Shown here one piece after another: positions 3,595 through 28,652 of a DNA stretch of 64,000 nucleotides. Origin of the DNA: Candidatus Nomurabacteria bacterium (GTDB lineage Bacteria > Patescibacteriota > Minisyncoccia > Phycocordibacterales > SBAW01). The notes below the pieces were generated by a model. The model searched no databases and was not told the origin of the DNA. It worked only from the letters and a program-made list of their open reading frames with translations. The stretch lies in the NCBI GenBank assembly GCA_020854065.1, contig JADZGF010000016.1, positions 20,784 to 84,783 of the forward strand. Direction: 5' to 3'. The translations under genes were made by a program, and so were the position numbers. The stretch's first letter is position 1. Each line of letters starts with the position of its first letter.

Positions 3595-5028
3595 CTAGTC
3601 TTTGCGTGGGAAGAGATTCTCAGGCTTTTTGTTTGCCATAATCGCCTCGATAATCTTCTTGCTCGTCTCGGGAATAATTGGCTCGAGCATAAGGTCGATA
3701 GCGGCAAGTTCTTTCACAAGCTCGGTGATGATTGCTTTCCCTCTCTCTGCATCGTCTTTAATCACTTTAAATGGTGCAGTCTCGGTAATCTTCTGGTCGA
3801 GCACTGCTATGCGCTGCCAGACATACTCAGCTGCTTTGTTGATCTCGAAACGATCGAGCGCGTCGGTAAACTCCTGAGGATACGGTACAAACTCGACCGC
3901 CACTGGCTCAGCAAGATGCGTCTGCGCGAGTTGCATAATACGCGACGCCAAGTTGCCAATACCGTTTGCTAAGTCAGCATTGTAGGCATCTTTCAAACGC
4001 TCCATAGTAAAATCGGAGTCCTCAAACGGATGTACATGTCGTGCTAAAAAGTATCGCAACGCGTCGGTGCCATATTCAGTCGCTAGAGCTATAGGCTCAA
4101 TGACGTTACCCAGCGACTTAGACATCTTTTGCCCACCACTCGTAATAAAGCCGTGGTACACCACCGTGTCAGTATTTTTTACCTCCCCCGACATGAGCAT
4201 TGCCTGCCACATGATGGATTGGAAGCGAACTTGATCCTTTCCTGCCATTTGTACCACCTCGCCCTTTTTCCAAAAGGTTTCGAAATTACCACCTTCGTTT
4301 GGCCAACCAGTGGTCGATATGTAATTTGTGAGTGCATCAAACCACACATACATCACCTGCGTGTCATCATCGGGCACGGGTACACCCCAACTCATGCGAG
4401 CCTTTTCGCGCGAGATACTAAAATCTTCCAAGCCTGACTCAACAAATTTAATTGCTTCTTCTCGACGCCAATCAGGCAAAATAGCTTTAGGACTTTTAAG
4501 ATAGGTAAGCAATTTATCTTGATATGCACTGAGGCGAAAGAAATAGTTTTCCTCCTCTATTTCTTGCGGCTGCATACTCGGATGGTTTGGACATTTTCCA
4601 TCCACCAAGTCCGTCTCTTTTATAAACGCTTCGTCACCCACGCAATACAGACCTTTGTACTTCTTTTTGTAAATGTCGCCTTTTGCTAAACATCGGCGCC
4701 ACAACTCTTGCGCAGCCGCCTTGTGCGCAGGGTCGGTAGTGCGGATAAACGCATCGTAGGAGAGACCGAGCCCTTCCTTTAATTTGCTAAATTGGCCAGC
4801 AAAATGATCGACGTATTCTTTCACATCTCTTCCCTCCTCTTGTGCCTTTTGGAATATTTTCTGTCCGTGCTCGTCGGTACCGGTGGTAAAAAATACCTCT
4901 CTACCCATAAGGCGCTGGTATCGGGCAATAATGTCGGCATGCACAATCTCTAACGCAAACCCAATATGGGGATCAGCGTTTACATACGGCAGGGTCGTCG
5001 TGAGGTAATATGGTTTCTTGTCAGACAT
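3595..5028 (-). CDS. metG: methionyl-tRNA synthetase
   Basis: HIGH region (PYVNADPHIGFA), KMSKSLGN, anticodon-binding domain. Confidence 0.9.
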   Translation of the reverse strand: MSDKKPYYLTTTLPYVNADPHIGFALEIVHADIIARYQRLMGREVFFTTGTDEHGQKIFQKAQEEGRDVKEYVDHFAGQFSKLKEGLGLSYDAFIRTTDPAHKAAAQELWRRCLAKGDIYKKKYKGLYCVGDEAFIKETDLVDGKCPNHPSMQPQEIEEENYFFRLSAYQDKLLTYLKSPKAILPDWRREEAIKFVESGLEDFSISREKARMSWGVPVPDDDTQVMYVWFDALTNYISTTGWPNEGGNFETFWKKGEVVQMAGKDQVRFQSIMWQAMLMSGEVKNTDTVVYHGFITSGGQKMSKSLGNVIEPIALATEYGTDALRYFLARHVHPFEDSDFTMERLKDAYNADLANGIGNLASRIMQLAQTHLAEPVAVEFVPYPQEFTDALDRFEINKAAEYVWQRIAVLDQKITETAPFKVIKDDAERGKAIITELVKELAAIDLMLEPIIPETSKKIIEAIMANKKPENLFPRKD

Positions 5029-5037
5029 TGCTCTAGC

Positions 5038-6114
5038 CTACTTGGGGTCACCCTCAGGAGTCAAACCCTCTTTTGCAAGCGCTTTGGTCTTTGCGCGATC
5101 AATGTCAGCCACGAGCTCTTGTATCGCAGCTGCAATAGGTACCGAAAGAAGGATACCCAAGAACCCTGCCACCTTAGCCCCCACCAGAAGCGCCAAGATA
5201 ACTAAGAGCGGAGGCACGCCCACCACCTTCTTCACCACCACCGGATAGATGAGATGTGCTTCAAACTGCTGCACCAACAGATAAAGTCCTAAGACCCAGA
5301 GGGATGCGGGGACGCCTCCATGAGCAAACGCGATAGCGATCGCAGGTATTGCTGCCAAAATCTGTCCAAAGACCGGGATAAGTTCAAATACGCCGGCCAA
5401 CACTGCAAGCAACAAGGCGTTTGGTACACCTAAAATAGTGAGACCTAAATAGAGCAATACGCCCACTATCACCCCTAGCACCACTTGGCCTTGCATCCAC
5501 TTCCCTATTTTGTCCTGTGAACGCTTCCAGAGCCCCAGGATGTATGCCTGATGCGACGTTGGAGTCACCACTCGCAGGAAGTCATCAACGCCAGTTTCTT
5601 GCACTGAAAAGTAGAAGGAAAACACGATGATAAGCACAAACGCAGTAATGCCACCAAAGATAGCTGAGAGGCCAGTAAAGATACCGCCGCCCGCCTGACC
5701 CAAGGTAAACGAAATGTCGTTTAAGAATGCTGCCGAATCTGCGGTATTAATGTTTGGAATAAGCCCATTGGTAGCCTCGGAGATATTAAACGATGCAAGT
5801 GTTGCGGGAAGCCTATCAAGGAAATTTGCTGCGTCATCGAGGACAGGTGGGATAAAAAGGATAAGGAGCCCTGCAAAAAGCGAACCAGCAAGAACATACA
5901 TGAGTATGACCGAGAGAACTCGGTGCAACCCATACCGCATAAAGAAGCGTATTGCTGGCTCCATGGCCGATGCAATAACCACTGCAGTAAGGAGAATAAG
6001 GACGAGGTCACGCAGGAACCAGAGTACTGCCACCAACAGCACCAGCAGTATGCCGGTCACCATTGAGCCCGCAGTGACATTAACTTGAACGTCCCGGAGT
6101 TTATCCATGCTCAC
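5038..6114 (-). CDS. AI-2E (PerM/YhhT) family transporter
   Basis: 8-TM architecture with conserved ELIPVFGQILAAIPAIAIAF segment. Confidence 0.6.
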   Translation of the reverse strand: MSMDKLRDVQVNVTAGSMVTGILLVLLVAVLWFLRDLVLILLTAVVIASAMEPAIRFFMRYGLHRVLSVILMYVLAGSLFAGLLILFIPPVLDDAANFLDRLPATLASFNISEATNGLIPNINTADSAAFLNDISFTLGQAGGGIFTGLSAIFGGITAFVLIIVFSFYFSVQETGVDDFLRVVTPTSHQAYILGLWKRSQDKIGKWMQGQVVLGVIVGVLLYLGLTILGVPNALLLAVLAGVFELIPVFGQILAAIPAIAIAFAHGGVPASLWVLGLYLLVQQFEAHLIYPVVVKKVVGVPPLLVILALLVGAKVAGFLGILLSVPIAAAIQELVADIDRAKTKALAKEGLTPEGDPK

Positions 6115-6141
6115 ACTCTAGCACATTGCCCTAGTTTGGGC

Positions 6142-7539
6142 CTACGCGCGGATTTTAGATTGGAGGAAGGTAACCAACTCCCCTATTGGCATGCGAGTCT
6201 GCTCACCAGTATCTCGATCACGCACCGTTACTGTGTCTTTGTGCTCAGGAGTCTCACCCAACGTATCGAAGTCGATTGTGATGCAGTACGGCGTACCCAC
6301 TTCGTCTTGGCGGCGGTAACGCTTCCCAATGTTGCCATTATCGTCCCATGCAACCTGAGGGATTTCTTTTTTAATCGTTGTGTACACTTCGCGCGCTTTT
6401 GCAACCAACTCTGGTTTGTTTTTAAGGAGTGGGAAGATTGCTGCCTTAAGGGGCGCAAGGTGTGGTGCAAGACGAAGAACAACACGCGTCTCGCCATCCA
6501 TTTCATCCTCGTAATAAGCGTCTGCGAGTACCGCGAGGAACACGCGGCCCATGCCCATTGATGTTTCGAGTATCCAAGGGATATATTTCTCCCCTGTCTC
6601 CGGATCTGTGTACCGCAAGTCAACACCAGAAAACTTTTGATGTTGCGACAAGTCGTAATCGGTTCGATCGTGAATACCCTCGACTTCATCAAACCCATGG
6701 GGAAACTCGTATTCAATATCCCACGCATCTTTTGCGTAAAAGACTAAATTTTCATGTTGTTTAAAACGCAGCTTTTTTTCGTTAATACCGAGAGATACAT
6801 ACCAATCCCATCGGTCTTTTTTAAGCGCCTCATATGCATCTTTGTTCTCGTTAGGACGAATAAAGAGCTGCGTATCGGCCTGCTCAAACTCTCGTGTGCG
6901 GAAGAGAAAGTTTCTTGGAGAAATCTCATTGCGGAACGCCTTACCTATTTGTGCAACACCAAAAGGAATTTTTGGCTGCATGGTGTCAACAATATTTTTG
7001 TAGTCAAGATAAATACCTTGGCATGCTTCCCCGGGCAAATAGACAGGTTCATTTCCCTCTGACGTAAAATCGCCAAGGTTTGTTTTTACCAACAAATTAA
7101 AAGCTTTTACTTGTGTAAATTCTTTTTTGCCGCATTTAGGACATTTAATCTTGTCACGATGCTGATCAAAAAGTTCATTAATAGCCTGTTCCGACATTTT
7201 CTCATCTGCAGTGATACCAATTGCCGCAAGTTCTTTATCAACACGAATGCGTGTGTTGCAGTTTTTACATTCAGCAAGCGGATCAGAAAAACCACCCACG
7301 TGGCCAGACGCCTCCCACGTGCGAGGATGTTTAAACATACCTGCATCAAGGCCATAGTAGTTTTCCTTATTGTAGACATTAGCCTTCCACCAAGAAGCCT
7401 TGATGTTATTGAGGAGCTCTACCCCTCGGGGACCAAAGTCATATACTCCTGAGAGGCCGCCATAAATTTCAGAACCTTGGTACACAAAACCGCGGCGTTT
7501 TGCGAGCGATACTAGTTTTTCCATCAAATCAGACGACAT
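6142..7539 (-). CDS. glyQS: glycyl-tRNA synthetase (dimeric class II type)
   Basis: Class II motifs and anticodon-binding domain; RGFVYQGSEIYGG N-terminus. Confidence 0.9.
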   Translation of the reverse strand: MSSDLMEKLVSLAKRRGFVYQGSEIYGGLSGVYDFGPRGVELLNNIKASWWKANVYNKENYYGLDAGMFKHPRTWEASGHVGGFSDPLAECKNCNTRIRVDKELAAIGITADEKMSEQAINELFDQHRDKIKCPKCGKKEFTQVKAFNLLVKTNLGDFTSEGNEPVYLPGEACQGIYLDYKNIVDTMQPKIPFGVAQIGKAFRNEISPRNFLFRTREFEQADTQLFIRPNENKDAYEALKKDRWDWYVSLGINEKKLRFKQHENLVFYAKDAWDIEYEFPHGFDEVEGIHDRTDYDLSQHQKFSGVDLRYTDPETGEKYIPWILETSMGMGRVFLAVLADAYYEDEMDGETRVVLRLAPHLAPLKAAIFPLLKNKPELVAKAREVYTTIKKEIPQVAWDDNGNIGKRYRRQDEVGTPYCITIDFDTLGETPEHKDTVTVRDRDTGEQTRMPIGELVTFLQSKIRA

Positions 7540-7574
7540 ACAGACGCCACTATATCGTAAATCACTACAACAGA

Positions 7575-9449
7575 CTAATCACGGACCTGGGTCCCCGTGG
7601 TCACGGGTTGTGCGGTCGCAGAGACCTGTATTTGTGCAAATCGATCAGTCCCCTGCAACACCGAAGAGCCGGTGAGTGTTGCAGCCCCACCTACATGTGT
7701 TGCTGATGCATTAAACCGAACTTCAAATGAGGTCCCGACCGATTCTTCGGTATACCCCGCACCTCCTGCAAGTTCCCCTATCGCCCACCGAACCGTGCGC
7801 GACCCTGCGTCATACGTGGTGCCCGTACCGCTTAAGTAGTCGACATACGGCGGCAAAATAGTCGAGACATTTGTATTTGCAACCGCGTTCGATGAATTGC
7901 GCGCAGTCCATGTTATCCGATACGTAGACTGCTCATTTGCCTCAGGTGGATTAGGGCCGCCTGTGTGGTTAACGGACGCCGAGAGTGCGAGTGCTGAAGC
8001 AAGTTGTACGTTAGTCGTTGCTGCGGCAACCACCTCTTCCGGCACCCCGACGCTATTTTGACGTGAACCACGTACGCTTAACGTAACGCCAACAGTAGGG
8101 TTCGAGTACACAACTCCACCTGTCCCTGGCACAAGCGTGGCAAAACTAAACTGCACAGAACTTTCAGCGCCAGGTGCAACAGACGCTAATGCCGGATCCT
8201 GTTGCTTGGTCCAAATGATAGTTGAGTTGGAGGATTGATAAAAACCACTACCGCTTGAGATACGGTTTTTATCGAGCATAGGACCGCTTAAGGTCACAAC
8301 GATCTCAACATCTTGAATAGGCTCAGAGAGATTGTTGCGCCAGGTGACCACACCCGCAAGCGGCTCCCCTGCTGGTGCCGCTACCGTGCTTCCGGTCTTG
8401 CCGTTGATACTGATGGTGCCGCCAATGAACGGCTTCTCTACCGTAAGAGAATGTGGAACAGATATAAACGGTACCGCTACCGCCGTGTCAGTATCATCAT
8501 CATTTTGCCCTGCCAAGAAGGTAAAGACTTTCTCATCACCATCGCTGCCTGTCATAACTCCCCGCAAGGTGAGCACGTACGTTTCGTTCGGGTCCATGTC
8601 TCCCACTTGCCAGAGCGCCCCTGCTGCCGGACGCGGATTTGCAGTGCGCACCGAGTAGCCAAATGGATATCGAGCTTCAAGCACTACATTATCAACCGGT
8701 GATGTTGAGTTGCTACGCAACGTTATCGTGGTCGTAAACTCCTCTCCCGTCACTGTCTCCGTTGGCATATCAACCTCGATCGAAATAGGCGAAGAACCGA
8801 GTGTGATCATCGAACTTGAACGTTTTTCAAACACCGCATTGGAGTTTGGCACACTATACTCGAGTCGAACCTCAATAGGTTGCGGCAATCCTTCTTGACC
8901 GAAGAATATTGCACTTGAGGTCCGCTTCACTTGTACTCCTGGCGCAACCGCACCAATAGACTGACGCTCATGAAGTTTCTCGCGCTCAGGATTCTCTGGG
9001 TCTCGGGTCCCTGGCGGATATTCAATAACAAGATCAGCGAGCAACAATGGTGACGCATTGCGGTTCGTAACGATGTATTGCATTTGCGTAACCGAACCAC
9101 TGTCGACAAGTGATGGCGCCACTATCTGTATATCGATATTTTGAGAAGATATAAAATTGCCTCCCCCAAAGAAGTAGTAGACCGAAAACGCAGCTGCGGC
9201 AACAAAGAAGATAAATGAGCCAAATAGAAATTTAGTTGCTATAGACATACCAGTTACTTGCGGTATACCAAAGCGCAGTGCCGACTGTGGAGTCTCGCGC
9301 GGCACCCCTGCCTGCCGTGGCTCCCATGCCACCGGCACTTCGCTATCTTCAGGGGTAAGTTTGGAGCGCTCGTGCTCCCCTATCTCTTCACCCCGTGAGT
9401 AGAGTTTTTTACGAAGTCCGTCGACTCCGCCCTTGTCATCCATCTGCAC
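7575..9449 (-). CDS. large membrane-anchored extracellular protein of unknown function
   Basis: 624 aa; ~70-aa cytoplasmic N-terminus, one TM, then long beta-rich Thr/Ser/Val-rich ectodomain; no catalytic motif seen. Confidence 0.4.
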   Translation of the reverse strand: MQMDDKGGVDGLRKKLYSRGEEIGEHERSKLTPEDSEVPVAWEPRQAGVPRETPQSALRFGIPQVTGMSIATKFLFGSFIFFVAAAAFSVYYFFGGGNFISSQNIDIQIVAPSLVDSGSVTQMQYIVTNRNASPLLLADLVIEYPPGTRDPENPEREKLHERQSIGAVAPGVQVKRTSSAIFFGQEGLPQPIEVRLEYSVPNSNAVFEKRSSSMITLGSSPISIEVDMPTETVTGEEFTTTITLRSNSTSPVDNVVLEARYPFGYSVRTANPRPAAGALWQVGDMDPNETYVLTLRGVMTGSDGDEKVFTFLAGQNDDDTDTAVAVPFISVPHSLTVEKPFIGGTISINGKTGSTVAAPAGEPLAGVVTWRNNLSEPIQDVEIVVTLSGPMLDKNRISSGSGFYQSSNSTIIWTKQQDPALASVAPGAESSVQFSFATLVPGTGGVVYSNPTVGVTLSVRGSRQNSVGVPEEVVAAATTNVQLASALALSASVNHTGGPNPPEANEQSTYRITWTARNSSNAVANTNVSTILPPYVDYLSGTGTTYDAGSRTVRWAIGELAGGAGYTEESVGTSFEVRFNASATHVGGAATLTGSSVLQGTDRFAQIQVSATAQPVTTGTQVRD

Positions 9450-9461
9450 AGTATACCAAGC

Positions 9462-10019
9462 TTACAGTCCAGTTGCAGAAAGAGATTCATTTATCGTCCT
9501 TATGAGCATGTTGCGAGACTGCAGCGCTTTGGCTGACAGCTCCAGAGAAATACCACCTTCTACAAACTGCGCGAGCGTGGGGGTCTCAGGAAGATAGCCG
9601 AGATGCGAGAGTATCCGCAGCACTAATACCGTCTCAAGTGCATCACTATGAACGGCATCTGCTTCTGCAAGAAGTGAAAAACCTTCCATGACGCTTTTAT
9701 ACAAATCCGGATGAGCCTCTTCACCGTTCACTAACCGCAACAAAAGTGCCGTCACCCGGCCAAGAGCTGCGGTAGGACGAAGTCGCTGGTAGGCCTCTGC
9801 CCCCGTGAGACGCCACTCATGTTTACCCTGTACAAGCGCGTACCGCCCTTCTGTAAGCGCCTCTATTCCATAGCGCAGCTTAGACTGCACTACTCGGGTG
9901 GAACGAGCCTGTGCACGTATCAACCCAAACTCTGGGGTGAGGATCCACACCAAGGTGTTTGCTTCGTTTACACCGCGTTTGCGCAATACGAGCCCCTCAG
10001 TGATATGGATCTTATGCAT
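9462..10019 (-). CDS. recO: DNA repair protein RecO (short form)
   Basis: ITEGLVLRKR...LVWILTPEFGLIRAQARS N-terminal OB and LRILSHLGYLPE helical domain; start at Met31 of track ORF. Confidence 0.7.
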   Translation of the reverse strand: MHKIHITEGLVLRKRGVNEANTLVWILTPEFGLIRAQARSTRVVQSKLRYGIEALTEGRYALVQGKHEWRLTGAEAYQRLRPTAALGRVTALLLRLVNGEEAHPDLYKSVMEGFSLLAEADAVHSDALETVLVLRILSHLGYLPETPTLAQFVEGGISLELSAKALQSRNMLIRTINESLSATGL

Positions 10020-13000
10020 CCTTCTTTTCTTTTCGAACGTCGAGCGACTTGAGTCCCGCTGCTGCCATAATCTCTTTCTGATATTTCTTAGCAACCTCCG
10101 CCAACTCATGAGGGACCACCAACTCGTATACTGGACGATCGGTAATGGTGAGTTTCATCGATTTACGCCATTCTTGTATGGCACGCACGAGCTCGCGCAC
10201 TTGTCCTTCTTCTTTTAACTCTTGGGTTAGCTCAGTATCGAGCACCACTTCGCTTCCCTCTTTTATTTCCTTTACATTGAGTTCTTCTGCCAAGATTGCG
10301 CGCAAATCAGGATCTGCAGGAATGTTTGGTGCACTAAAGCTCGCAAGCGGTTGGCGCACTTTAATATTTGCACGCTCACGCAGTTCAAGTCCTGCACTCG
10401 CAAGATCACGAATAGCTTGCATGTCAGTTAACAATTGCTCGTCAATAATGCCGCTCTCAGGCCACTCCGTAAGATGTACACTTTCTGCGTCATCGGCATT
10501 TTTAACTCGACGATATAGATCGTCAGCAAAGAATGGCATCACGGGCGCCATAGCTTTCGCTACGGTTATCAATACATGTCGCAAGGTTGCAACCGCATCG
10601 GTATTTTCTTTTTCTTTAAAACGATCACGTGAACGGCGCACATACCAGTTGGAAAGGTCTTCAATAAAGTCTAGAAGTGGTCGTGTTGCATTATCAAGTT
10701 CATACGCCTCATAGCCCAGAGTGGTGTCTTTAATAAATTGATTGAGTCGAGCGAGTATCCACCGATCAAGTGGGTGGACACTGTTCGTAGCAGCTTCGGT
10801 GCCATCGGCATAGAGATCATAAAAACTACGCACGTTATCAAGGCGCATCAGTACTTTTTTACTAACTTCATCCACTCCCTGCTCTTTGAAGCGAAGGTCC
10901 TCGCCTCGAATTACTGACGATGAAAGAAGGTAGTATCGCAATGCATCGGCACCATACTTATCAACCACATCCATAGGGTCGGGATAATTGCGTAAGCGTT
11001 TACTCATCTTTTGACCATCCGAGGCCAAGACCAGACCATTTACGATTACATTTTTATACGGTGTGCGATTAAAGAGCGCCGTTCCTAACACAATAAGTGA
11101 GTAGAACCACCCACGAGTTTGATCGAGTCCTTCGGCGATAAAGTCTGCGGGATACCCTTTGGCGCCAAATCCAAAGAAACGCTTCGGATTGAACGTATCT
11201 TTAACAAATGGGTAGTGGTTACTTGCAAACGGCATTGAGCCAGATTCGAACCAACAATCAAACACATCAGGAATGCGTTTCCACTCACCATCAAGCGAGT
11301 TGCCGGTGGGCACTTCATCAATGTATGGTCGATGCAGATCAAGATCATAGTCGCGATTATGCGGAAATAGCACAAATACCAATTCTTTTGGTTCGGCATT
11401 TCTGCGCAATACAAGTTTGTCTGCACTGCGATGTGGTATGCGCGCAGCAATTAAATCCATCATCCACAATGGATATCCATGACTTACGATCAAAATATTT
11501 TTACCCACATAACGACGCTCGATGTCGAACATAAACTCCCCTACTCGTCTGCGCACTTCAAGGCGGGCGCTGTCATCCTCTTTGTCGGTCTCACAAATAC
11601 GCTCATCCACCATTAGTGCCGAGTCGGATAACCCCAGTTCATTTTGGACAATACGCGCAGTTTCTTGGGCACGCACAAAAGGCGACGTGATGACAAGATC
11701 AATGTTTTCTTTTCTGAGATCTGCTGCTGCATGCGCCGCTTGTTTGCGCCCCCTTTCCGTCAAATGATTATCTGGGTCGCCCGTTAAATCGAGAACATTC
11801 GCAACATTATTTTGCGATTCTCCGTGCCGCATCACAAAGTAGCGATTGCCACTTCGGCGCACCATTGCGAGCAATTCGTTGACCGAGCCCACCACTCGCA
11901 CCTCTTTACTCTTGCTATGGCGCCATACTGGCAGTGGTGCACCCCAATAGCGACTGCGCGATATCGCCCAGTCGGGAGCAGATTCAAGTCCATTATTAAA
12001 ACGTCCTTTGCCTACATGCTCAGGCACCCATGTAATCGTGTTGTTTTGAGCAAGGAGTTTATCTTTAAGCGCAGAGACCTTCACAAACCAAGACGTTGCT
12101 GCCCAGTTGAGAAGCGGTGTATCGCACCGCCAACAATGCGGATAGCTGTGCGTGATTTTTTCTTTCTTAAACAAAAGACCACGCTCTTCAAGGTTTGCTG
12201 CGACCTTTTCATCAGTCTCGCGCGGATTACCTTTAGGCTTAACGGCAAGACCTTCAAAATCGGTAACGGTAGAGACAAACTTCCCCTCCTCATTTACATG
12301 ATGAACGAGTGGAATTTTGTGTGCCTGCGCAAGCGCAAGGTCATCAGCGCCAAAGGCCGGTGCAATATGCACGATGCCCGTGCCACTATCTAAAGTAACA
12401 AAGTCAGCCGCATAGATTTTCCATGCATGCGTCTTGTGCTTATGGAGTTCCCCTACAAAGTAATCAAAGGGTGGCAGATATTTTTTACCTACCAACTTTT
12501 TACCCTCAAACTCTTCAACTATCTCGCCATCGGGTGCAAGCGCCTTAGCGGCAATTACCATTCCTTGCGAGGTCTTAATTTTGACATACGTTGCATCAGC
12601 TTTTACTGCTGCAGCCGCGTTCCCTGGTAGGGTCCATGGTGTCGTGGTCCAGATAAGGAGCGATGTGTCAGGATCATCAACAAGCGGGAGTTTAACGGTG
12701 ACCGCTATATCATCGATATCTTTATAACCCTGAGCCACCTCAAAGTTTGAAAGTGTCGTGCCGCAGCGTGGACACAGATGCATAGCTTTGAAGCCTTCGT
12801 ATATAAGACTTTTCTCGTACAGACTCTTAAATGCCCACCATACGCTCTCGGTGTATGGCGTATCCATGGTCTTGTAGTCGTTATCCATGTCTGCCCAACG
12901 ACCAAGACGCGGAATGATGCGCTTCCAATCTGCGACATCTTTCATGATCGAGACACGGGCTGCCTCGTTAAACTTCTCTATGCCGTACTGCTCAATATCA

Positions 13001-13356
13001 CGTTTGCTCTTAAACCCAAGTTCTTTTTCAACCAAGTTTTCAACCGGAAGTCCGTGACAGTCCCATCCCCACTGTCGCGCAACATGATATCCCTGCATGG
13101 TTCGATACCGCGGAATCGCATCTTTAATAGTCGAAGCAAGAATGTGGCCGTAGTGTGGCAAACCGTTTGCAAACGGTGGGCCGTCATAAAAAACATACTC
13201 TCCTTTGGGTGATTCTTTCTGGAGAGACTTCTCAAAAATCCCCTCATTGTTCCAAAACGTTAAAATCCCCTCTTCGCGCTCTGCGAGGGGGCCTTTGGGC
13301 TTGTGTGTTTGAGCATGATGGAGCTCCTCTCCGCCCTGTTTCGGATCATCAACCAT
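10012..13356 (-). CDS. ileS: isoleucyl-tRNA synthetase, type 2, with an embedded histidine-phosphatase (PGAM-like) domain
   Basis: PPFANGLPHYGH HIGH motif (type-2 IleRS, not ValRS), CP1 editing domain, KMSKRL; about 150 aa RHGESQNN...TERGRKQA...ITSPFVRAQETA...IVSHGYPLW inserted between WGAPLPVW and RIPDVFDCWFESG. Confidence 0.85.
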   Translation of the reverse strand: MVDDPKQGGEELHHAQTHKPKGPLAEREEGILTFWNNEGIFEKSLQKESPKGEYVFYDGPPFANGLPHYGHILASTIKDAIPRYRTMQGYHVARQWGWDCHGLPVENLVEKELGFKSKRDIEQYGIEKFNEAARVSIMKDVADWKRIIPRLGRWADMDNDYKTMDTPYTESVWWAFKSLYEKSLIYEGFKAMHLCPRCGTTLSNFEVAQGYKDIDDIAVTVKLPLVDDPDTSLLIWTTTPWTLPGNAAAAVKADATYVKIKTSQGMVIAAKALAPDGEIVEEFEGKKLVGKKYLPPFDYFVGELHKHKTHAWKIYAADFVTLDSGTGIVHIAPAFGADDLALAQAHKIPLVHHVNEEGKFVSTVTDFEGLAVKPKGNPRETDEKVAANLEERGLLFKKEKITHSYPHCWRCDTPLLNWAATSWFVKVSALKDKLLAQNNTITWVPEHVGKGRFNNGLESAPDWAISRSRYWGAPLPVWRHSKSKEVRVVGSVNELLAMVRRSGNRYFVMRHGESQNNVANVLDLTGDPDNHLTERGRKQAAHAAADLRKENIDLVITSPFVRAQETARIVQNELGLSDSALMVDERICETDKEDDSARLEVRRRVGEFMFDIERRYVGKNILIVSHGYPLWMMDLIAARIPHRSADKLVLRRNAEPKELVFVLFPHNRDYDLDLHRPYIDEVPTGNSLDGEWKRIPDVFDCWFESGSMPFASNHYPFVKDTFNPKRFFGFGAKGYPADFIAEGLDQTRGWFYSLIVLGTALFNRTPYKNVIVNGLVLASDGQKMSKRLRNYPDPMDVVDKYGADALRYYLLSSSVIRGEDLRFKEQGVDEVSKKVLMRLDNVRSFYDLYADGTEAATNSVHPLDRWILARLNQFIKDTTLGYEAYELDNATRPLLDFIEDLSNWYVRRSRDRFKEKENTDAVATLRHVLITVAKAMAPVMPFFADDLYRRVKNADDAESVHLTEWPESGIIDEQLLTDMQAIRDLASAGLELRERANIKVRQPLASFSAPNIPADPDLRAILAEELNVKEIKEGSEVVLDTELTQELKEEGQVRELVRAIQEWRKSMKLTITDRPVYELVVPHELAEVAKKYQKEIMAAAGLKSLDVRKEKKDA

Positions 13357-13392
13357 ATTGAAAAACTATAACAAAATTAAGGCGATATTGCC

Positions 13393-13932
13393 TTATGGTC
13401 GTTCAGCTATAAATTGCGATACTTTTTCAAGCGCAATTTTGCGCATAGAAGTTGCGTGTTTATCATCGTCAGACATCTCGGCCCAGGTTTTTTCATACCC
13501 GTCCGGAATAAAAATCGGATCCCACCCAAAACCCATCTCACCACGAGGCGACGGAGCAATAGTGCCCTTTTTCGAGCCGCTAAACGTATGAACGCCTGTT
13601 TCATCACAGATAGCAAACATCACTTCAGCATGGGCCACTCGATTTTCTTTAACTAATTTACAAAGCCCTTCATTCCCAAGAGTCTCTAAAAACCATTTAA
13701 TAAGCGGTCCCGGTAGCGCTTTGAGTTCTTCAAAAACAAGCGAAACATCTTCCACCAACACAGGGGTCTTTACTATCTCATATGCTCGACGCGCTTTGTC
13801 TTCAACTACCTCCTTAAGATCGAGAGATTGAATTTCAATAAGATCGAGCTTTTTGTGCTCGACCGGCATATGAAAGTAGTCGCTTAAATATTTTGCCTTT
13901 CCCGCATTACCTGTAATGAAAGTTAATTTCAT
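13393..13932 (-). CDS. rdgB: non-canonical purine NTP pyrophosphatase (RdgB/HAM1)
   Basis: ITGNAGK...FGWDPIFIP motifs. Confidence 0.85.
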   Translation of the reverse strand: MKLTFITGNAGKAKYLSDYFHMPVEHKKLDLIEIQSLDLKEVVEDKARRAYEIVKTPVLVEDVSLVFEELKALPGPLIKWFLETLGNEGLCKLVKENRVAHAEVMFAICDETGVHTFSGSKKGTIAPSPRGEMGFGWDPIFIPDGYEKTWAEMSDDDKHATSMRKIALEKVSQFIAERP

Positions 13933-14345
13933 AACTCTTTTTTAATATTTATAAAAAAATCTTTATCCTTGTTATGCGTAAGTGGGCCTTCTACTTCTTC
14001 GACATTTACCCAACGGGCTTCTGGATTATGAACATCAACAGGCGCGAGCGTTTCCTCTTTTGTGCGAAAGAGAAACATCGTCATATTTTTTAGTTCTGTA
14101 AGATCGTCCTTTCCATCAAGACCAATCCGGTACCGCGAGTATGTGCCTAGATCTTTAACATACTCAAGATTACTGATTCCTGATTCTTCATATATCTCGC
14201 GTTTTGCCGCTGTTAACGCATCCTCTCCCTCGTCTATGTGTCCTTTTGGTAATGACCACGACCTTCCACCCTGACTCACAACCAACACTTCTCCTTGTTT
14301 GTTGAGAACTACTCCACCAGCACTGTTAGTCTTGCGAGTCTCCAT
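13929..14345 (-). CDS. NUDIX hydrolase
   Basis: Nudix box GHIDEGEDALTAAKREIYEESG; start at METRKT, which gives a 5-nt gap to the end of argS (14350). Confidence 0.7.
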   Translation of the reverse strand: METRKTNSAGGVVLNKQGEVLVVSQGGRSWSLPKGHIDEGEDALTAAKREIYEESGISNLEYVKDLGTYSRYRIGLDGKDDLTELKNMTMFLFRTKEETLAPVDVHNPEARWVNVEEVEGPLTHNKDKDFFINIKKEL

Positions 14346-14349
14346 TAGA

Positions 14350-15903
14350 TTACATCTCCTTGGGCACCGGAATACCCAAAACAGTGAGGCCATCGTGCAA
14401 GGTTTTGATAGTGGCGTATGCGAGCCACACGCCATAGCGCGGATTCGCCCCACCAATAACACGGTTGGCGGCATACCAGGAGTTAAATGCGCCTGCGAGC
14501 TCGGTTAAATAGGTGGTGATGTAGTGTGGTTCCATCTCACGAGCAGCACGCGCCACCACGTCAGGATAGTGAATAAGTACGCGCTCGAGTACACTGGCAT
14601 GTTCGGGTATATCATCGGTACTTGGCTCAATACCTGCCTCTTTTGCTGCCTGCACTAAAGAATGTGCGCGGGTATGTGCATATTGCAGATACGGACCAGA
14701 ATCACCTTCAAGTGAAAGAGATTTTTCTGGATCAAAGATAATATCTTTGCTACTCCCTTGTTTGAGTACCGCATACTTAATTGCACCAACTGCAATCATC
14801 TCGGCAGTTTTCTCTGCCTCCGCAAGTTCTCGACCCTGCATTTTTTCTTTTGCAGCAGCGATGAGGTCATTAAGCAATGACTCTCCGGTGATAACATTGC
14901 CGGTACGCGAGGACATTTTCCCTTCTGCAAACCGCATCATGCCGTGCGAGCGATGCGTCAGCTTACCCGAAAGCTCAGGAAATACTTTCTGTATCGCATC
15001 AAAGACCACATCGAAAAAGCCGTTTTGCTCGTTGGCGGTCACCGTGAGATAGATATCAGACGGTACTTTTTCTTTTTTCAGCTTGGCTAACCCGAGCTCT
15101 TTTGCCTCATATGTCGGCAACTTTTTCTGAGTTACAAACACACGAGTATGAGCACCGTGGTATACGAGCGCTCCTTCGCTCTCTTGGAAAAGCTCGGGAT
15201 GCGCGCTGACTATTTCAAGTCCAATGAGGCCCGATTCGCTTTCAAAAAAGTAATGGTCGAATGTGGTACCTAGTTTTTTGTAGATTTCCTCAAAATGCGC
15301 AAGTGATTCTGCCCGCCCTTGGTCATACAGTGTGTTAACGGCGACATCAGAGCGCTCATACACTTTTTTATTAATCTCGTCTATCTCATCTTTATGTGCA
15401 TCGTATTGTGCAGCACCGTACACATACGCTTCGCCCCAAGAGCTTTCTGGCTTTTGCATCTTCCCCCAGATAGCCTTTGCAACATGGGGGCCAACATCGC
15501 CTTGATAGTTAGCACGTACAACGGTAGCTCCTGACACCTCAAGAACACGAGCAATCGCCTCGCCCACCGCATTACTCATGAGGTGTCCAATATGGAATTC
15601 TTTAAACGGATTAGGGTCAGTGTACTCAGCAAGTATTTTCTTACCTGCGTACTGTGCGGGTATTTCTGCCGGTTGTGGCACCAAACTCTTACGCGACACG
15701 TGGAAGTTAATAAACTTCCCTACCACTTCTATCTTTTCAATCCCTTCAATGGAGAGTTTTGCGGCAAGTTCCTGTGCATCGAGTTTGTTCACGAGTGCAG
15801 CGTTGGTCGAATAGTCGCCATGACTTAAATCGCGTGGGCGCTCAACTACAAAGTTGGCTGCTCCTGCATCACGCAACGCCTGCTCTATCCTCTCTCGAAT
15901 CAT
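14350..15903 (-). CDS. argS: arginyl-tRNA synthetase
   Basis: HIGH (FHIGHLMSNAVGE), class I fold, DALR anticodon-binding domain. Confidence 0.9.
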   Translation of the reverse strand: MIRERIEQALRDAGAANFVVERPRDLSHGDYSTNAALVNKLDAQELAAKLSIEGIEKIEVVGKFINFHVSRKSLVPQPAEIPAQYAGKKILAEYTDPNPFKEFHIGHLMSNAVGEAIARVLEVSGATVVRANYQGDVGPHVAKAIWGKMQKPESSWGEAYVYGAAQYDAHKDEIDEINKKVYERSDVAVNTLYDQGRAESLAHFEEIYKKLGTTFDHYFFESESGLIGLEIVSAHPELFQESEGALVYHGAHTRVFVTQKKLPTYEAKELGLAKLKKEKVPSDIYLTVTANEQNGFFDVVFDAIQKVFPELSGKLTHRSHGMMRFAEGKMSSRTGNVITGESLLNDLIAAAKEKMQGRELAEAEKTAEMIAVGAIKYAVLKQGSSKDIIFDPEKSLSLEGDSGPYLQYAHTRAHSLVQAAKEAGIEPSTDDIPEHASVLERVLIHYPDVVARAAREMEPHYITTYLTELAGAFNSWYAANRVIGGANPRYGVWLAYATIKTLHDGLTVLGIPVPKEM

Positions 15904-26018: not shown

Positions 26019-26093
26019 TGGGGTGCCTACAGGGAATTGAACCCTGATCACCGCTGCCACAGAGCGGAGCTTTACCATTAAGCTATAGGCACC
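26019..26093 (-). tRNA. tRNA-His (GTG) with encoded G-1 and CCA
   Basis: Hand-folded cloverleaf: G-1 GTGCCTA..anticodon loop CTGTGGC..T-arm CAGGG TTCAATT CCCTG..TAGGCAC C CCA. Confidence 0.85.
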
Positions 26094-26611
26094 ATGAGCT
26101 TATCCCGCTCCACGGGGTAGCGATGGACAAGATGGTGGCAATTATGGCAGAGATACACGAGGTTTTCAACCTTATTATTCTTACGATTTTTATCAATATG
26201 ATGAACTGCGATAACACGCCTATCTTCAGTTTTGCAAAGTCGACAATATTTTTTCATTCCCGCCCTACTCAACACGCTTCTATAGGAAGATTTTCCATCC
26301 ACATAGTTGGAGTGTTTTTCTCCTATATACAATTGATTTCTCCAACGAGTCTGGCAACTTTTTGAACAGAAGTACTTTCCACTTTTTGAACGCTCAATCA
26401 TCCGAGGAGCGCGGTATATTTCCTTGTCGCACTCATGACACTGCCTGCTCTCTCCTTTCTTTACCCCTTGATACTGACACTTTTTAGAACAATAGCGCCC
26501 CCACCCTTGTCGCACAAAGAAAGGCTTCGTCTTGAATTGCGTGCTGCATACTTCACACGCGCGGACCATGCCTATATTTTCCCCCACACGAGAGAAAGAG
26601 TAAATACACAA
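26078..26611 (-). CDS. HNH endonuclease with tandem N-terminal zinc ribbons
   Basis: AVHHIDKNRKNNKVENLVYLCHNCHHLVH HNH motif; repeated C..C...YCSKKCQ units; AT-richer than surroundings; 3' end overlaps first 16 nt of tRNA-His. Confidence 0.7.
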   Translation of the reverse strand: MCIYSFSRVGENIGMVRACEVCSTQFKTKPFFVRQGWGRYCSKKCQYQGVKKGESRQCHECDKEIYRAPRMIERSKSGKYFCSKSCQTRWRNQLYIGEKHSNYVDGKSSYRSVLSRAGMKKYCRLCKTEDRRVIAVHHIDKNRKNNKVENLVYLCHNCHHLVHRYPVERDKLMVPIA

Positions 26612-26643
26612 GTTTGTGGATATACAGAAGCCTCTCTAAAACC

Positions 26644-27630
26644 CTATATTTTTGCGCGCACCATTTCACGGCGCGAGGATACGTACGCAAAGAGCACAAA
26701 CACTAATCCGATAAGGCCGGTGATAATTTCTGGCACATGGTACACGAGTCCAACTAACATCGATAAGGAAAGGCCGAGTATTGCCCAGTGTGCACCGTGT
26801 TCAAGGTACGGTAGATGCTCAAGTGTGCGCTTGCGAACCAGGTAGAGCGTAATGGCACGGACAAAGTAAGCGCCAATACCAAGACCGATAAAGATAATAA
26901 TGATCTGCGTGGTGATAGCGAAGGCTCCCACTACCCCATCGAGTGAGAATGCTGCGTCGAGTACGTTTAAGTACACGAACAGTGCTGCGGAACTGCGCGC
27001 AATATCGCCTCGATGCTGCCCGAGTGAGTTTGCCAACCCTTGTATGGCAATGAAAAGGACAATACCCACGACACCTGCAGCAAGTACAAGACCTTGCGGC
27101 GCGTGCGCAACATAGGAGAGTGCGAGTATGGCCATAAGCGCAAGTGCTATCTCAATAGCTTCGATACGTCCCCAGCGCTTCATGTGGCGCTCAACCGAGG
27201 CTATCCAGTCAACTTCTTTGGCAGTGTCGAAAAAATACTGGAGCGACACCATCAAAAGAAACACACCACCAAAAGCAAGAATTGCTGGCGATGCATGTTT
27301 AAGGAGTTCGCCATACGCAACGGGATCGTTAAACGCCAACAGTGTTGCGGCCCATGGAGACACCCATGCAGCGATAGCAACGATCAACACCGGCAAGACT
27401 AAGCGCGTACCAAACACTGCAACCAAGATTCCCCACGTCAAAAAGCGGCGACGCCACTTCTCTTCCATGTTTGCGAGCACTTTTGCATTCACCACTGCGT
27501 TATCGAAAGAAAGTGTCACCTCAAGTACCGACAATAATGCCGCAAGCCATAGTGCTGCAAAGCCTCCCCACAGATACGCACCAATAAGTGCTACGATCGA
27601 ACCCACTATCGGACCAATAAAAATATGCAT
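26644..27630 (-). CDS. TerC/DUF475-family integral membrane protein
   Basis: LSFDNAVVNA and SLDGVVGAFAIT paired motifs in polytopic protein. Confidence 0.5.
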   Translation of the reverse strand: MHIFIGPIVGSIVALIGAYLWGGFAALWLAALLSVLEVTLSFDNAVVNAKVLANMEEKWRRRFLTWGILVAVFGTRLVLPVLIVAIAAWVSPWAATLLAFNDPVAYGELLKHASPAILAFGGVFLLMVSLQYFFDTAKEVDWIASVERHMKRWGRIEAIEIALALMAILALSYVAHAPQGLVLAAGVVGIVLFIAIQGLANSLGQHRGDIARSSAALFVYLNVLDAAFSLDGVVGAFAITTQIIIIFIGLGIGAYFVRAITLYLVRKRTLEHLPYLEHGAHWAILGLSLSMLVGLVYHVPEIITGLIGLVFVLFAYVSSRREMVRAKI

Positions 27631-27693
27631 CGCATCATTGTATCAGTGCTGGTAAATTTCCCTAAAATCTCTATACTGAAGCGTGTTCGAAAT

Positions 27694-27778: not shown

Positions 27779-27830
27779 CGGAAATAAAGACGTCCCCGCA
27801 CATGCGGGGACGTTTGCGTATATGCAAAGA

Positions 27831-28127: not shown

Positions 28128-28140
28128 ACGTTTGCAACTA

Positions 28141-28166: not shown

Positions 28167-28167
28167 A

Positions 28168-28626: not shown

Positions 28627-28652
28627 CATGACCAAAAGAATGTACCACACCC

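What the first reader, a model, noticed from the sequence alone, without database searches (positions are those of the whole stretch)
10012..13356. Isoleucyl-tRNA synthetase carrying an embedded histidine-phosphatase (phosphoglycerate-mutase-like) domain
The 1114-aa ORF is a type-2 IleRS (PPFANGLPHYGH HIGH motif, KMSKRL). Between the conserved WGAPLPVW and RIPDVFDCWFESG elements, the usual ~55-aa zinc-knuckle/CP2 spacer is replaced by ~215 aa (about nt 11400-11860). This insert contains a complete branch-1 histidine-phosphatase domain: catalytic RHGESQNN, TERGRKQA, ITSPFVRAQETA, and the second His in IVSHGYPLW. The flanking DLDLHRPYIDEV element is retained, so this is a clean in-frame domain insertion, not a gene fusion or frameshift. 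I do not recall a phosphatase domain inside an aaRS catalytic core. Plausible roles are speculative: hydrolysis of aminoacyl-adenylate or nucleotide, dephosphorylation of a tRNA or protein, or a moonlighting signalling function.
Basis: partly seen in the sequence, partly recalled or inferred. Interest (0 to 1): 0.72.

Follow-up and report, generated by a model that had tools for sequence, protein, structure and literature searches.

The report
Isoleucyl-tRNA synthetase with built-in phosphatase
This gene encodes a complete isoleucyl-tRNA synthetase with an apparently active histidine-phosphatase domain nested in a surface loop of its catalytic core; the arrangement is real, conserved across hundreds of ultra-small (Patescibacteria) bacteria, also found in their valyl-tRNA synthetases, and was not found in any paper searched.

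Summary

The insert lies inside the CP3 subdomain. It splits CP3 rather than replacing a zinc knuckle or CP2.

It is not an assembly artefact. All 120 nearest homologues and at least 106 species-level genomes share the architecture in conserved synteny (ArgRS-IleRS-RecO). Catalytic residues R510, H511, N517, R562, E589 and H626 are 95-100% conserved while the rest of the domain diverges to about 32% identity.

The window's protein belongs to a "short" subgroup lacking about 30 aa of the substrate cap.

New here: Peregrinibacteria IleRS carries two HP domains, and Gracilibacteria/Peregrinibacteria ValRS carries one to three in the homologous CP3 site.

Function is unknown. My best reading is a bifunctional synthetase plus PhoE-type phosphomonoesterase. 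A role coupled to tRNA or protein dephosphorylation is not excluded. No paper describes it, although automatic annotations already label some members "IleRS/phosphoglycerate mutase".

The parts
10012..13356 (-). ileS: complete type-2 (eukaryote-like) isoleucyl-tRNA synthetase with a nested phosphatase domain, 1114 aa
   Evidence: ORF. TIGR00392 scores 881.8 bits against a cut-off of 621.4. Best PDB matches are human, yeast, Candida, Thermus and P. megaterium IleRS2 at E about 1e-208 to 1e-214, against 1e-97 for the S. aureus type 1 enzyme. The identical protein is P0001, named by NCBI 'class I tRNA ligase family protein [Candidatus Nomurabacteria bacterium]'.
13144..13155 (-). HIGH signature (H68-Y-G-H71) of the class I catalytic site
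   Evidence: Sequence. P67, H68, G70 and H71 are invariant in 97 homologues.
12127..12714 (-). CP1 editing domain (about aa 215-410) with an intact Thr-rich peptide W236-TTTPWTLPGN and G325-TGIVHIAPAFGADD339
   Evidence: Sequence. W236, T237-T239, N246, H330 and D339 are invariant. Matches isolated IleRS editing-domain structures 1WK8 and 1WNY.
11869..11946 (-). CP2-CP3 linker and first half of CP3 (WGAPLPVW, beta-hairpin, short helix VNELL), aa 471-496
   Evidence: Aligns to the equivalent segment of human IleRS 9W01. CP3 is defined in yeast and Candida IleRS papers. The AF2 model shows strands 477-480 and 486-488 and helix 492-496.
11341..11868 (-). Inserted histidine-phosphatase (branch 1, PhoE-like) domain, aa 497-672, short-cap form
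11821..11829 (-). R510-H511-G512: phosphate-binding Arg and nucleophilic His
   Evidence: R510 and H511 are present in 120 of 120 homologues found through the whole protein.
11671..11673 (-). R562, second phosphate-binding Arg
   Evidence: Present in 120/120 and 80/80.
11554..11592 (-). E589 (predicted proton donor) followed by the shortened loop (TDKEDDSARLE) that replaces the cap segment of about 40 aa found in most relatives
   Evidence: E589 is present in 115/120 and 79/80. The RHG-to-DLHRP distance is bimodal at 156-161 and 186-195 aa; the short form makes up 52 of 173 sequences.
11479..11481 (-). H626, second catalytic His (SHG motif)
   Evidence: Present in 119/120 and 80/80.
11278..11340 (-). 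Second half of CP3 (DLHRPYIDEV...), aa 673-693; native IleRS sequence resumes here
   Evidence: Aligns to human IleRS residues 498 onward. D673, L674, H675, R676, P677 and D680 are invariant.
10996..11010 (-). KMSKR signature loop (aa 783-787)
   Evidence: Sequence. K783, M784, S785 and K786 are invariant.
10345..10767 (-). Anticodon-binding domain (aa 864-1004)
   Evidence: Pfam Anticodon_1 scores 109 bits.
10033..10257 (-). C-terminal DUF5915 domain typical of type-2 IleRS (aa 1034-1108)
   Evidence: Pfam PF19302 scores 51 bits.

Best explanation
The gene encodes one polypeptide with two enzymes.

(1) A complete, editing-competent type-2 IleRS that charges tRNA-Ile in the normal way.

(2) A catalytically competent PhoE-type histidine phosphatase nested in CP3, a peripheral and structurally variable subdomain of the Rossmann fold.

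The phosphatase would work as all branch-1 enzymes do. R510, R562 and H626 hold a terminal phosphate. H511 attacks it to form a phospho-histidine intermediate. E589 protonates the leaving group and then activates water.

My preferred reading is that it hydrolyses a diffusible phosphomonoester (phosphometabolite or nucleotide) with low specificity. CP3 would serve as a permissive display site, giving the phosphatase constitutive, stoichiometric expression in a streamlined genome, and the phosphatase would not take part in the aminoacylation chemistry itself.

Shown: the architecture, the insertion site, the fold, conservation of the catalytic residues, vertical inheritance and wide distribution.

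Inferred: that the domain is active, the class of substrate, and the lack of mechanistic coupling to the synthetase.

Confidence by part: that this is a real bifunctional architecture with an active-looking phosphatase, about 0.9. That the substrate is a small soluble phosphomonoester and the function is uncoupled from aminoacylation, about 0.4. The overall figure reflects the second part.
For: Real and inherited:
- All 120 closest homologues (60-80% identity, many independent assemblies) carry PF00300 plus the IleRS domains.
- At least 106 GTDB species representatives encode it, and 79 of 79 recovered ORFs show the order WGxPxP, then RHG, then DxWFxSG, then KMSK.
- ArgRS-IleRS-RecO-DUF11 synteny is present in 51-62 of 80 loci.

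Active-looking:
- R510, H511, N517, R562, E589 and H626 are 95-100% conserved, while the domain as a whole averages 54% identity and falls to 32%.
- The fold is confident.

Small-molecule type:
- Most family members keep a conserved cap segment.
- The closest true stand-alone relative is named 'broad specificity phosphatase PhoE'.

No sign of RNA binding: the embedded domains have net charge about -2 and pI about 6.4, like stand-alone relatives.

Peripheral site: CP3 differs in topology between IleRSs and is a protein-docking surface in human IARS1.

Loose geometry: copy number varies from 0 to 4 in related ValRS and IleRS proteins.

The IleRS part is intact.
Against: - HP domains were recruited more than once into the same CP2/CP3 region of IleRS and ValRS. 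The IleRS-type and ValRS-type domains are only about 31% identical, and Peregrinibacteria IleRS has two copies at two sub-sites. That is hard to credit as chance and suggests a link with these particular synthetases.
- The linkers on both sides are highly conserved (R500, S502-G503-N504; F661, P665-H666-N667), which suggests rigid docking rather than a loose tether.
- In the window's own subgroup the specificity cap is deleted, yet every catalytic residue is kept. That fits a substrate recognised by something other than the cap, either an open SixA-like site for a macromolecule or a substrate presented by the synthetase.
Confidence: 0.42

Rival explanations
1. Coupled macromolecular phosphatase. 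The HP domain acts on a phosphate carried by the synthetase's own substrate or by the synthetase itself. Examples are a 2'/3'-terminal (pyro)phosphate on tRNA A76, or a phospho-Ser/Thr/His on the enzyme (such as the KMSKR loop) or on a partner protein. It would restore or regulate charging of tRNA-Ile.
For: - Independent HP insertions recur in the CP3 site of two paralogous class Ia editing synthetases, with stacking of extra copies.
- The junctions are conserved.
- Cap-less forms with intact catalytic residues leave an open SixA-like site.
- The superfamily includes protein phosphatases such as SixA and the MutT1 C-terminal domain.
- Kinase toxins that inactivate class I synthetases exist: HipA on GltX Ser239 and HipT on TrpS (PMC6581861).
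- CP3 is flanked by the strands that line the amino-acid and adenylate pocket (describes the CP2-CP3 linker as part of a ligand pocket).
Against: - The closest structures are small-molecule phosphatases.
- The domains are acidic to neutral, not basic.
- Most members keep a cap.
- Tandem copies cannot all sit in one productive geometry.
- ValRS relatives with and without HP are interleaved, so the domain is dispensable there.
- There is no hit in the defence-system library.
- No toxin that phosphorylates IleRS or ValRS is known to me.
Confidence: 0.3
2. The domain is the organism's cofactor-dependent phosphoglycerate mutase (dPGM), or another specific pathway enzyme (phosphoserine phosphatase, alpha-ribazole phosphatase), parked inside IleRS, as some automatic names imply.
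For: JGI names such as 'isoleucyl-tRNA synthetase/bisphosphoglycerate-dependent phosphoglycerate mutase'. The best NCBIfam partial hit is dPGM_arch. The best PDB sequence hit is phosphoserine phosphatase 4IJ5.
Against: - Every equivalog model falls far below its cut-off: dPGM_arch 64-69 against 225, pgm_1 34 against 81.7, PspA 51-57 against 350, CobC 41-46 against 163.
- HMM matches cover mainly the N-terminal half.
- The window's protein lacks the cap region that builds the substrate pocket in these enzymes.
- A described Parcubacterium is drawn with a cofactor-independent PGM.
Confidence: 0.08
3. Non-catalytic module. The HP fold serves only as a structural buttress, oligomerisation surface or ligand sensor, substituting for the lost Zn knuckle of CP3.
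For: The window protein has lost the CP3 Zn ligands. About 15% of ValRS HP copies carry H to N at the second His.
Against: The complete catalytic set is nearly invariant across Paceibacteria and in both copies of Peregrinibacteria IleRS (117-118 of 118), while the surrounding sequence diverges to about 28-32% identity. Relatives that keep the Zn knuckle also carry the insert.
Confidence: 0.07
4. Assembly chimera, frameshift or mis-called ORF.
For: None found. Occasional split ORF calls exist in other assemblies (P0121, P0250).
Against: There is a single uninterrupted ORF. The architecture is identical in hundreds of independent assemblies, including contigs up to megabase size (for example P0453, 1.25 Mb). 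Synteny is conserved. Composition is unremarkable.
Confidence: 0.01

Closest known systems
Type-2 (eukaryote-like) bacterial IleRS, e.g. Thermus thermophilus IleRS (1ILE) and Priestia megaterium IleRS2 (8C8U)
   Same: Whole synthetase body: HIGH, KMSKR, CP1 editing motifs, CP2, CP3 scaffold, anticodon-binding domain and DUF5915 C-terminal domain. E-values are about 1e-208 to 1e-212.
   Different: A 176-aa enzyme domain splits CP3. The references have 8-18 residues at that point. The Zn ligands of Thermus CP3 are absent.
PhoE broad-specificity phosphatase (Geobacillus stearothermophilus, 1H2E) and relatives PSP1 (4IJ5) and CobC (6E4B)
   Different: These are free-standing proteins of about 200-210 aa with a cap. 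The window domain is nested in another enzyme, lacks about 30 aa of the cap, and reaches no equivalog threshold.
SixA phosphohistidine phosphatase (1UJC)
   Different: The hit is below the SixA cut-off of 74.5. Structurally and by sequence the domain is closer to the PhoE group. Long-form orthologues have a cap, so the cap-less state is secondary.
NCBIfam NF040702 'isoleucine--tRNA ligase, N-acetyltransferase domain-containing'
   Same: A curated precedent for an IleRS that carries an extra enzymatic domain.
   Different: The domain is different (GNAT). The window protein scores 348 bits against a cut-off of 1999, so it is not a member. I could not determine where the GNAT domain sits.
Hydrolytic domains nested in synthetase catalytic cores: CP1 editing domain of Ile/Val/LeuRS and the INS domain of bacterial ProRS (textbook knowledge)
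   Same: A hydrolase fold inserted into a loop of the aminoacylation domain and inherited as one polypeptide.
   Different: Those domains hydrolyse mis-acylated tRNA esters. A histidine phosphatase cleaves phosphomonoesters, a chemistry with no established role in aminoacylation.
Other bifunctional HP fusions: mycobacterial MutT1 (NUDIX + HP; 9CXX, 3FJY) and RNase H/acid phosphatase (NF005567)
   Different: Those are end-to-end fusions, not nested insertions, and they involve a different HP subfamily.
HP-bearing ValRS of Gracilibacteria/Peregrinibacteria and two-HP IleRS of Peregrinibacteria
   Same: HP domain(s) inserted between the WG-x-P-x-P and D-x-WF-x-S motifs, which is CP3. Peregrinibacteria HP1 shares the insertion site and the D584-x-R586 signature with the window protein.
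   Different: A different synthetase (ValRS), a different HP subfamily (about 31% identity, W-x-E signature), one to three tandem copies plus occasional CP2-region copies, and patchy presence.

Membership tests
Isoleucyl-tRNA synthetase (TIGR00392 equivalog, class Ia) | Profile score above the curated cut-off | tested here: met
   881.8 bits against 621.4. The valS model scores 445 against 612, which is not met.
Isoleucyl-tRNA synthetase (TIGR00392 equivalog, class Ia) | HIGH and KMSKS signature motifs | tested here: met
   HYGH at 68-71 and KMSKR at 783-787, invariant in 97 homologues.
Isoleucyl-tRNA synthetase (TIGR00392 equivalog, class Ia) | CP1 editing domain with Thr-rich peptide and conserved His/Asp | tested here: met
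   W236-TTTPWTLPGN and G325-TGIVH330...D339 are invariant. Matches to 1WK8 and 1WNY.
Isoleucyl-tRNA synthetase (TIGR00392 equivalog, class Ia) | Isoleucine-specific aminoacylation of tRNA-Ile | not testable with these tools
   Needs biochemistry.
Type-2 (eukaryote-like) IleRS | Closer to eukaryotic, archaeal and Thermus IleRS than to type-1 bacterial IleRS; C-terminal DUF5915 instead of a Zn-binding domain | tested here: met
   E about 1e-208 to 1e-214 for human, yeast, Candida, Thermus and IleRS2, against 1e-97 for S. aureus. PF19302 hit.
Mupirocin-resistance IleRS MupA/MupB (NF000257/NF000258) | Score above the exception-model cut-off of 1900 bits | tested here: not met
   664 and 724 bits.
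IleRS with GNAT domain (NF040702) | Score above the cut-off of 1999 bits | tested here: not met
   348 bits.
Histidine phosphatase superfamily, branch 1 (PF00300) | Profile score above the gathering threshold | tested here: met
   83.2 and 89.5 bits against 21.7.
Histidine phosphatase superfamily, branch 1 (PF00300) | Catalytic core: RHG His nucleophile, two Arg, a second His and an acidic proton donor | tested here: met
   R510, H511, R562, E589 and H626 are present and 95-100% conserved.
Histidine phosphatase superfamily, branch 1 (PF00300) | Alpha/beta phosphoglycerate-mutase-like fold | tested here: met
Histidine phosphatase superfamily, branch 1 (PF00300) | Phosphomonoesterase or mutase activity through a phospho-His intermediate | not testable with these tools
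   Needs an enzyme assay and an H511A control.
Cofactor-dependent phosphoglycerate mutase (NF038349, TIGR01258) | Equivalog or subfamily score above the cut-off | tested here: not met
   64-69 against 225, and 34 against 81.7.
SixA phosphohistidine phosphatase (TIGR00249) | Equivalog score above the cut-off of 74.5 | tested here: not met
PspA phosphoserine phosphatase (NF045917) / CobC alpha-ribazole phosphatase (TIGR03162) | Equivalog score above the cut-off | tested here: not met
   51-57 against 350, and 41-46 against 163.
Known anti-phage defence proteins (PADLOC-DB) | Any profile match of the HP domain | tested here: not met
   0 families at E<=0.01.

The most novel reading that the evidence does not exclude
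The phosphatase is functionally wired to the synthetase. One version is a built-in 'self-repair' activity that strips an inhibitory phosphate from the enzyme's own KMSKR loop or from the 3' end of its tRNA, countering kinase or pyrophosphokinase toxins of the HipA or toxSAS kind. The other version is an amino-acid-gated signalling phosphatase, in which occupancy of the Ile or Val pocket (lined by the strands that flank CP3) switches the HP domain on or off. Either would be a new class of synthetase-embedded activity. It would also explain why HP domains were recruited repeatedly, and stacked, in IleRS and ValRS of Patescibacteria.
Probability: 0.25. Interest if true: 0.9.

Novelty: new variant of a known kind. 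Interest (0 to 1): 0.68.

Why it matters
- Aminoacyl-tRNA synthetase catalytic cores are among the most conserved protein architectures known. The hydrolytic domains nested in them so far are the ester-cleaving editing domains. A phosphatase with intact catalytic residues, nested in CP3 and kept under purifying selection across large Patescibacteria lineages, adds a new chemistry to this enzyme class. The independent recruitment into ValRS, with up to three or four copies, strengthens the point.
- If the activity is coupled to charging, it would reveal an unknown layer of tRNA or synthetase quality control or regulation. If it is uncoupled, it is a striking case of a nested 'Rosetta-stone' fusion in streamlined genomes.
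- There are practical consequences. NCBI's pipeline downgrades these essential enzymes to 'class I tRNA ligase family protein'. JGI names them '.../phosphoglycerate mutase', which can create false glycolysis calls in metabolic reconstructions of candidate-phyla bacteria.
- The insert is a clean lineage marker.

Tried and rejected
- **Assembly artefact or frameshift:** rejected.
- **'Stand-alone' copies of the insert:** P0121 (62% identical, 26-kb contig), P0141 and P0250 turned out to be ORF fragments of split ileS calls, because they contain the DLHRPYIDE junction.
- **dPGM, PspA, CobC or SixA identity:** all below the curated cut-offs.
- **Link to NUDIX/Ham1 'house-cleaning' enzymes:** the window has NUDIX and Ham1 directly upstream, and one IleRS (P0259) has an internal NUDIX domain. 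But Ham1 and NUDIX are not conserved neighbours (0-1 of 80 loci), and a NUDIX box occurs in only 1 of 394 long synthetases. The link is anecdotal.
- **Gene neighbourhood as a functional clue:** only housekeeping synteny was found.
- **RNA-binding charge signature:** absent.
- **Defence-system libraries:** no PADLOC hit, and one PHROG of unknown function.
- **Single or multiple cap loss:** an NJ tree with parsimony gave 23 state changes and several distinct replacement loops. The tree is poorly resolved, so this is left open.
- **Structural orientation of the HP pocket relative to the synthetic and editing sites:** could not be done, because the tools return no coordinates.
- **AFDB Foldseek search:** the library was unavailable.
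- **First representative-search call:** failed through my own frame error and was corrected.
- **Literature:** four searches pairing synthetase terms or these lineages with phosphatase or mutase terms found nothing relevant.

Full report
**1. The observation**

The 1114-aa ORF is real.
- Pfam splits tRNA-synt_1 into two stretches and places His_Phos_1 (PF00300) between them. His_Phos_1 scores 83 bits in context and 89.5 bits on the excised segment, against a threshold of 21.7.
- NCBIfam's ileS equivalog scores 882 bits against a cut-off of 621.
- The best solved relatives are eukaryote-like and type-2 IleRSs (human 9W01, yeast 7D5C, Candida 6LDK, Thermus 1ILE, P. megaterium IleRS2 8C8U) at E about 1e-208 to 1e-214. 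The type-1 S. aureus enzyme scores 1e-97. With the DUF5915 C-terminal domain, this supports 'type 2'.
- GC content across the insert is unremarkable.

**2. Where the insert sits**

Against human IleRS, query 27-496 aligns to 15-489 and query 673-1031 aligns to 498-880. So aa 497-672 (nt 11341-11868) are inserted where the reference has about 8 residues.

Structural papers on Candida and yeast IleRS define this region as the CP3 subdomain: yeast residues 459-526, beta-beta-alpha-alpha topology, zinc-bearing in Thermus, and 'on the opposite side of CP2'. In human IARS1, CP3 together with the catalytic domain forms the docking surface for LARS1.

The native CP3 elements survive on both sides of the insert: the beta-hairpin and 'VNELL' helix before it, and 'DLHRPYIDEV' after it. 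Some relatives (L075, L079) keep the CxxC...CxC zinc ligands around the same insert.

**3. Not an artefact, and a clade-wide character**

- The identical protein is in NCBI as 'class I tRNA ligase family protein [Candidatus Nomurabacteria bacterium]'. All 120 best homologues (60-80% identity, 969-1211 aa, from NCBI, JGI, ENA and Logan assemblies) carry PF00300 plus the IleRS domains.
- A scan of one genome per GTDB species found at least 106 species with the insert. The records are labelled Adler-, Kaiser-, Nomura-, Vogel- and Zambryskii-bacteria, Paceibacterota and Minisyncoccia. Several TPA records carry the label 'uncultured Candidatus Saccharibacteria', which I could not verify.
- In 79 of 79 recovered ORFs the order is WGxPxP, then RHG (about 39 aa later), then DxWFxSG, then KMSK.
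- ArgRS lies upstream in 53 of 80 loci. RecO lies downstream in 62 and a DUF11-like protein in 51-52. This is one vertically inherited orthologous locus.

**4. The phosphatase looks active**

Among the 120 homologues found through the whole protein (so without bias toward the insert):

| Residue | Conserved |
|---|---|
| R510, H511 | 120/120 |
| N517 | 118/120 |
| R562 | 120/120 |
| E589 | 115/120 (the rest D) |
| H626 | 119/120 |

In the wider species set the HP region is only 32-62% identical to the query, yet N517, R562, E589 and H626 are 79-80 of 80. The invariant NRYFVMRH there is partly an ascertainment effect of the search pattern.

The domain evolves faster than the Rossmann halves (54% against 81% mean identity to the query) and at a rate similar to the C-terminal domains.

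AlphaFold gives pLDDT 87-96 for the insert inside the full-length model (overall pLDDT 81, pTM 0.68). For the domain alone it gives pLDDT 88.9 and pTM 0.86.

No equivalog-level model is satisfied. dPGM, pgm_1, PspA, CobC and SixA all fall below their cut-offs.

**5. Short and long forms**

The distance from RHG to DLHRP is bimodal. It is 186-195 aa in 120 of 173 sequences and 156-161 aa in 52 of 173. The window's protein is a short form.

It lacks about 30 aa of the segment after the catalytic Glu (consensus E-x-x-FG-x-F/Y-x-G...W...P-x-GGE-S/T). In this superfamily that segment builds the substrate-specificity cap.

Short forms carry several different replacement loops and are scattered on a rough tree. 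All keep the catalytic residues. The site in the window's protein should therefore be open, as in SixA.

**6. The IleRS part is intact**

HIGH, KMSKR, the Thr-rich editing peptide and the editing His and Asp are invariant. Three other synthetase genes in the same region (MetRS, a class II enzyme and ArgRS) are of ordinary size. The 64-kb window contains no second histidine phosphatase.

**7. The phenomenon is wider than the finding**

- **Representative search.** A search of 1.84 billion representative proteins with the insert gave 4826 hits at E<1e-3 and 275 at E<1e-10. Of the best 150, 100 have IleRS-like flanks.
- **Stand-alone hits.** Several apparent 'stand-alone' hits are fragments of split ileS calls. 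True stand-alone relatives (38-40% identity) include one named 'broad specificity phosphatase PhoE'.
- **ValRS outliers.** Two outliers are ValRS. P0252 passes the valS equivalog (849 bits against 704) and has two HP domains. P0122 is a ValRS fragment with four. Against Thermus ValRS, one HP of P0252 lies between residues 418 and 442, which is the CP3-equivalent site. The other lies between 362 and 378.
- **ValRS distribution.** About 70 of the top 120 ValRS homologues (records labelled Gracilibacteria or Peregrinibacteria) carry PF00300. RHG sits exactly 27 aa after WWGHxIP. The WWGH-to-DxWFSS gap is 34-58 aa without HP, about 205-238 aa with one, about 400-434 aa with two and 614 aa with three. 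HP-less and HP-bearing ValRS are interleaved. A Nomurabacteria ValRS has none.
- **Peregrinibacteria IleRS.** It is about 1430-1500 aa (P0186 and 119 homologues, including 'Ca. Peribacter riflensis') and has two HP domains at two sub-sites of CP3. Both have complete catalytic sets (117-118 of 118).
- **Relationships between copies.** HP1 shares the window protein's site and its D584-x-R586 signature. HP2 and the ValRS domains share a W-x-E-type signature. They are only about 28-31% identical to the Paceibacteria insert, no closer than stand-alone phosphatases are. This implies at least two recruitments of HP domains into the CP3 region of Ile and Val synthetases.
- **NUDIX.** One IleRS (P0259) also carries an internal NUDIX domain. 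This is unique among 394 long proteins examined.

**8. What it most likely does**

Shown:
- a nested, folded domain with intact catalytic residues, under purifying selection;
- an intact synthetase around it;
- a peripheral insertion site.

Inferred from the established mechanism of the family: H511 forms a phospho-enzyme, R510, R562 and H626 bind phosphate, and E589 acts as the acid/base.

For a small-molecule, uncoupled phosphatase:
- the structural neighbours are small-molecule enzymes;
- most members retain a conserved cap;
- the domain charge is acidic to neutral;
- CP3 is variable and peripheral;
- copy number is variable.

For coupling to the synthetase:
- recruitment recurs at the same site in two paralogous editing synthetases;
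- the linkers are conserved;
- the catalytic set is retained after cap loss.

I rate the uncoupled bifunctional reading at about 0.4, a coupled macromolecular or regulatory phosphatase at about 0.3, a specific pathway enzyme (dPGM or similar) at about 0.08, a non-catalytic module at about 0.07 and an artefact at about 0.01.

Precedents for phosphate-based attack on class I synthetases exist: HipA on GltX Ser239 and HipT on TrpS (PMC6581861). Protein-directed HP domains also exist: SixA and the MutT1 C-terminal domain (PMC12407098). These are leads, not tests.

**9. Novelty**

No paper in the searchable library links a histidine phosphatase or phosphoglycerate-mutase domain to an aminoacyl-tRNA synthetase. 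Two Patescibacteria genome papers that mention phosphoglycerate mutase do not mention the fusion.

Databases already hold hundreds of examples. JGI's pipeline names some of them 'isoleucyl-tRNA synthetase/bisphosphoglycerate-dependent phosphoglycerate mutase', '/broad specificity phosphatase PhoE' or '/phosphohistidine phosphatase SixA'. NCBIfam has a curated model for a different domain-bearing IleRS, with GNAT.

I classify the finding as a new variant of a known kind: a known enzyme with a previously undescribed nested catalytic domain.

**10. Limits**

- No coordinates were available, so the orientation of the HP pocket relative to the synthetic site, the editing site, the KMSKR loop and the tRNA path is unknown.
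- Whole-genome co-occurrence tests could not be run.
- LeuRS and other synthetases were not surveyed.
- Taxon labels come from the submitters.
- The NJ tree is only rough.

Noticed in passing
P0252, P0122, P0274-P0391; no window coordinates: ValRS of Gracilibacteria/Peregrinibacteria carries one to three tandem histidine-phosphatase domains in the CP3-equivalent site (RHG exactly 27 aa after WWGHxIP), and sometimes another upstream in the CP2 region. HP-less ValRS proteins are interleaved among them.
   Followed up: yes
P0186, P0392-P0510, including 'Ca. Peribacter riflensis' P0453: Peregrinibacteria IleRS (about 1430-1500 aa) has two HP domains at two sub-sites of CP3, both with complete catalytic residues. 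A few members have three.
   Followed up: yes
P0259: One IleRS (1382 aa) carries a NUDIX domain at aa 226-343 near the start of CP1, in addition to the CP3 HP domain. It is unique among 394 long synthetases checked.
   Followed up: partly
window 13393-13932 (-) and 13929-14474 (-): A Ham1/ITPase gene and a NUDIX hydrolase gene sit between ArgRS and ileS. In related genomes ArgRS is directly adjacent to ileS, so this pair of nucleotide 'house-cleaning' genes is a genome-specific insertion.
   Followed up: yes
window 3595-15903 (-): Four synthetase genes lie on one strand within 12 kb: MetRS 3595-5028, a class II enzyme 6142-7539, IleRS, and ArgRS 14350-15903. The ArgRS-IleRS-RecO-DUF11-like membrane protein order is conserved in 51-62 of 80 related loci.
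   Followed up: partly
window 9462-10109 (-) and 13929-14474 (-): The longest-ORF starts of RecO and of the NUDIX gene overlap the upstream genes by about 98 and 125 nt. Their Pfam domains begin at aa 34 and aa 49, so the true starts are probably internal Met codons.
   Followed up: no
P0121 (186 aa, 26-kb contig), P0250, P0141: Some assemblies have the HP segment called as a separate short ORF that still contains the IleRS junction (DLHRPYIDE). These are probably frameshifts or sequencing errors, and conceivably split ileS genes.
   Followed up: partly
names: NCBI's pipeline names these essential enzymes 'class I tRNA ligase family protein', and JGI names some '.../bisphosphoglycerate-dependent phosphoglycerate mutase'. 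The latter could produce false PGM calls in metabolic reconstructions of candidate-phyla bacteria.
   Followed up: no
window 26019-36632: Eight tRNA genes (His, Leu, Val, Arg x3, Ser, Lys) are scattered over about 10 kb. No tRNA-Ile gene is in the window.
   Followed up: no
window 11341-11868 (-): The HP domain matches phage protein family phrog_12933 (unknown function, 62 bits), so related histidine phosphatases occur in phage genomes.
   Followed up: no
P0251 (771 aa): A protein made of three tandem dPGM-like histidine-phosphatase repeats with no synthetase part. It appears unrelated to the finding.
   Followed up: no
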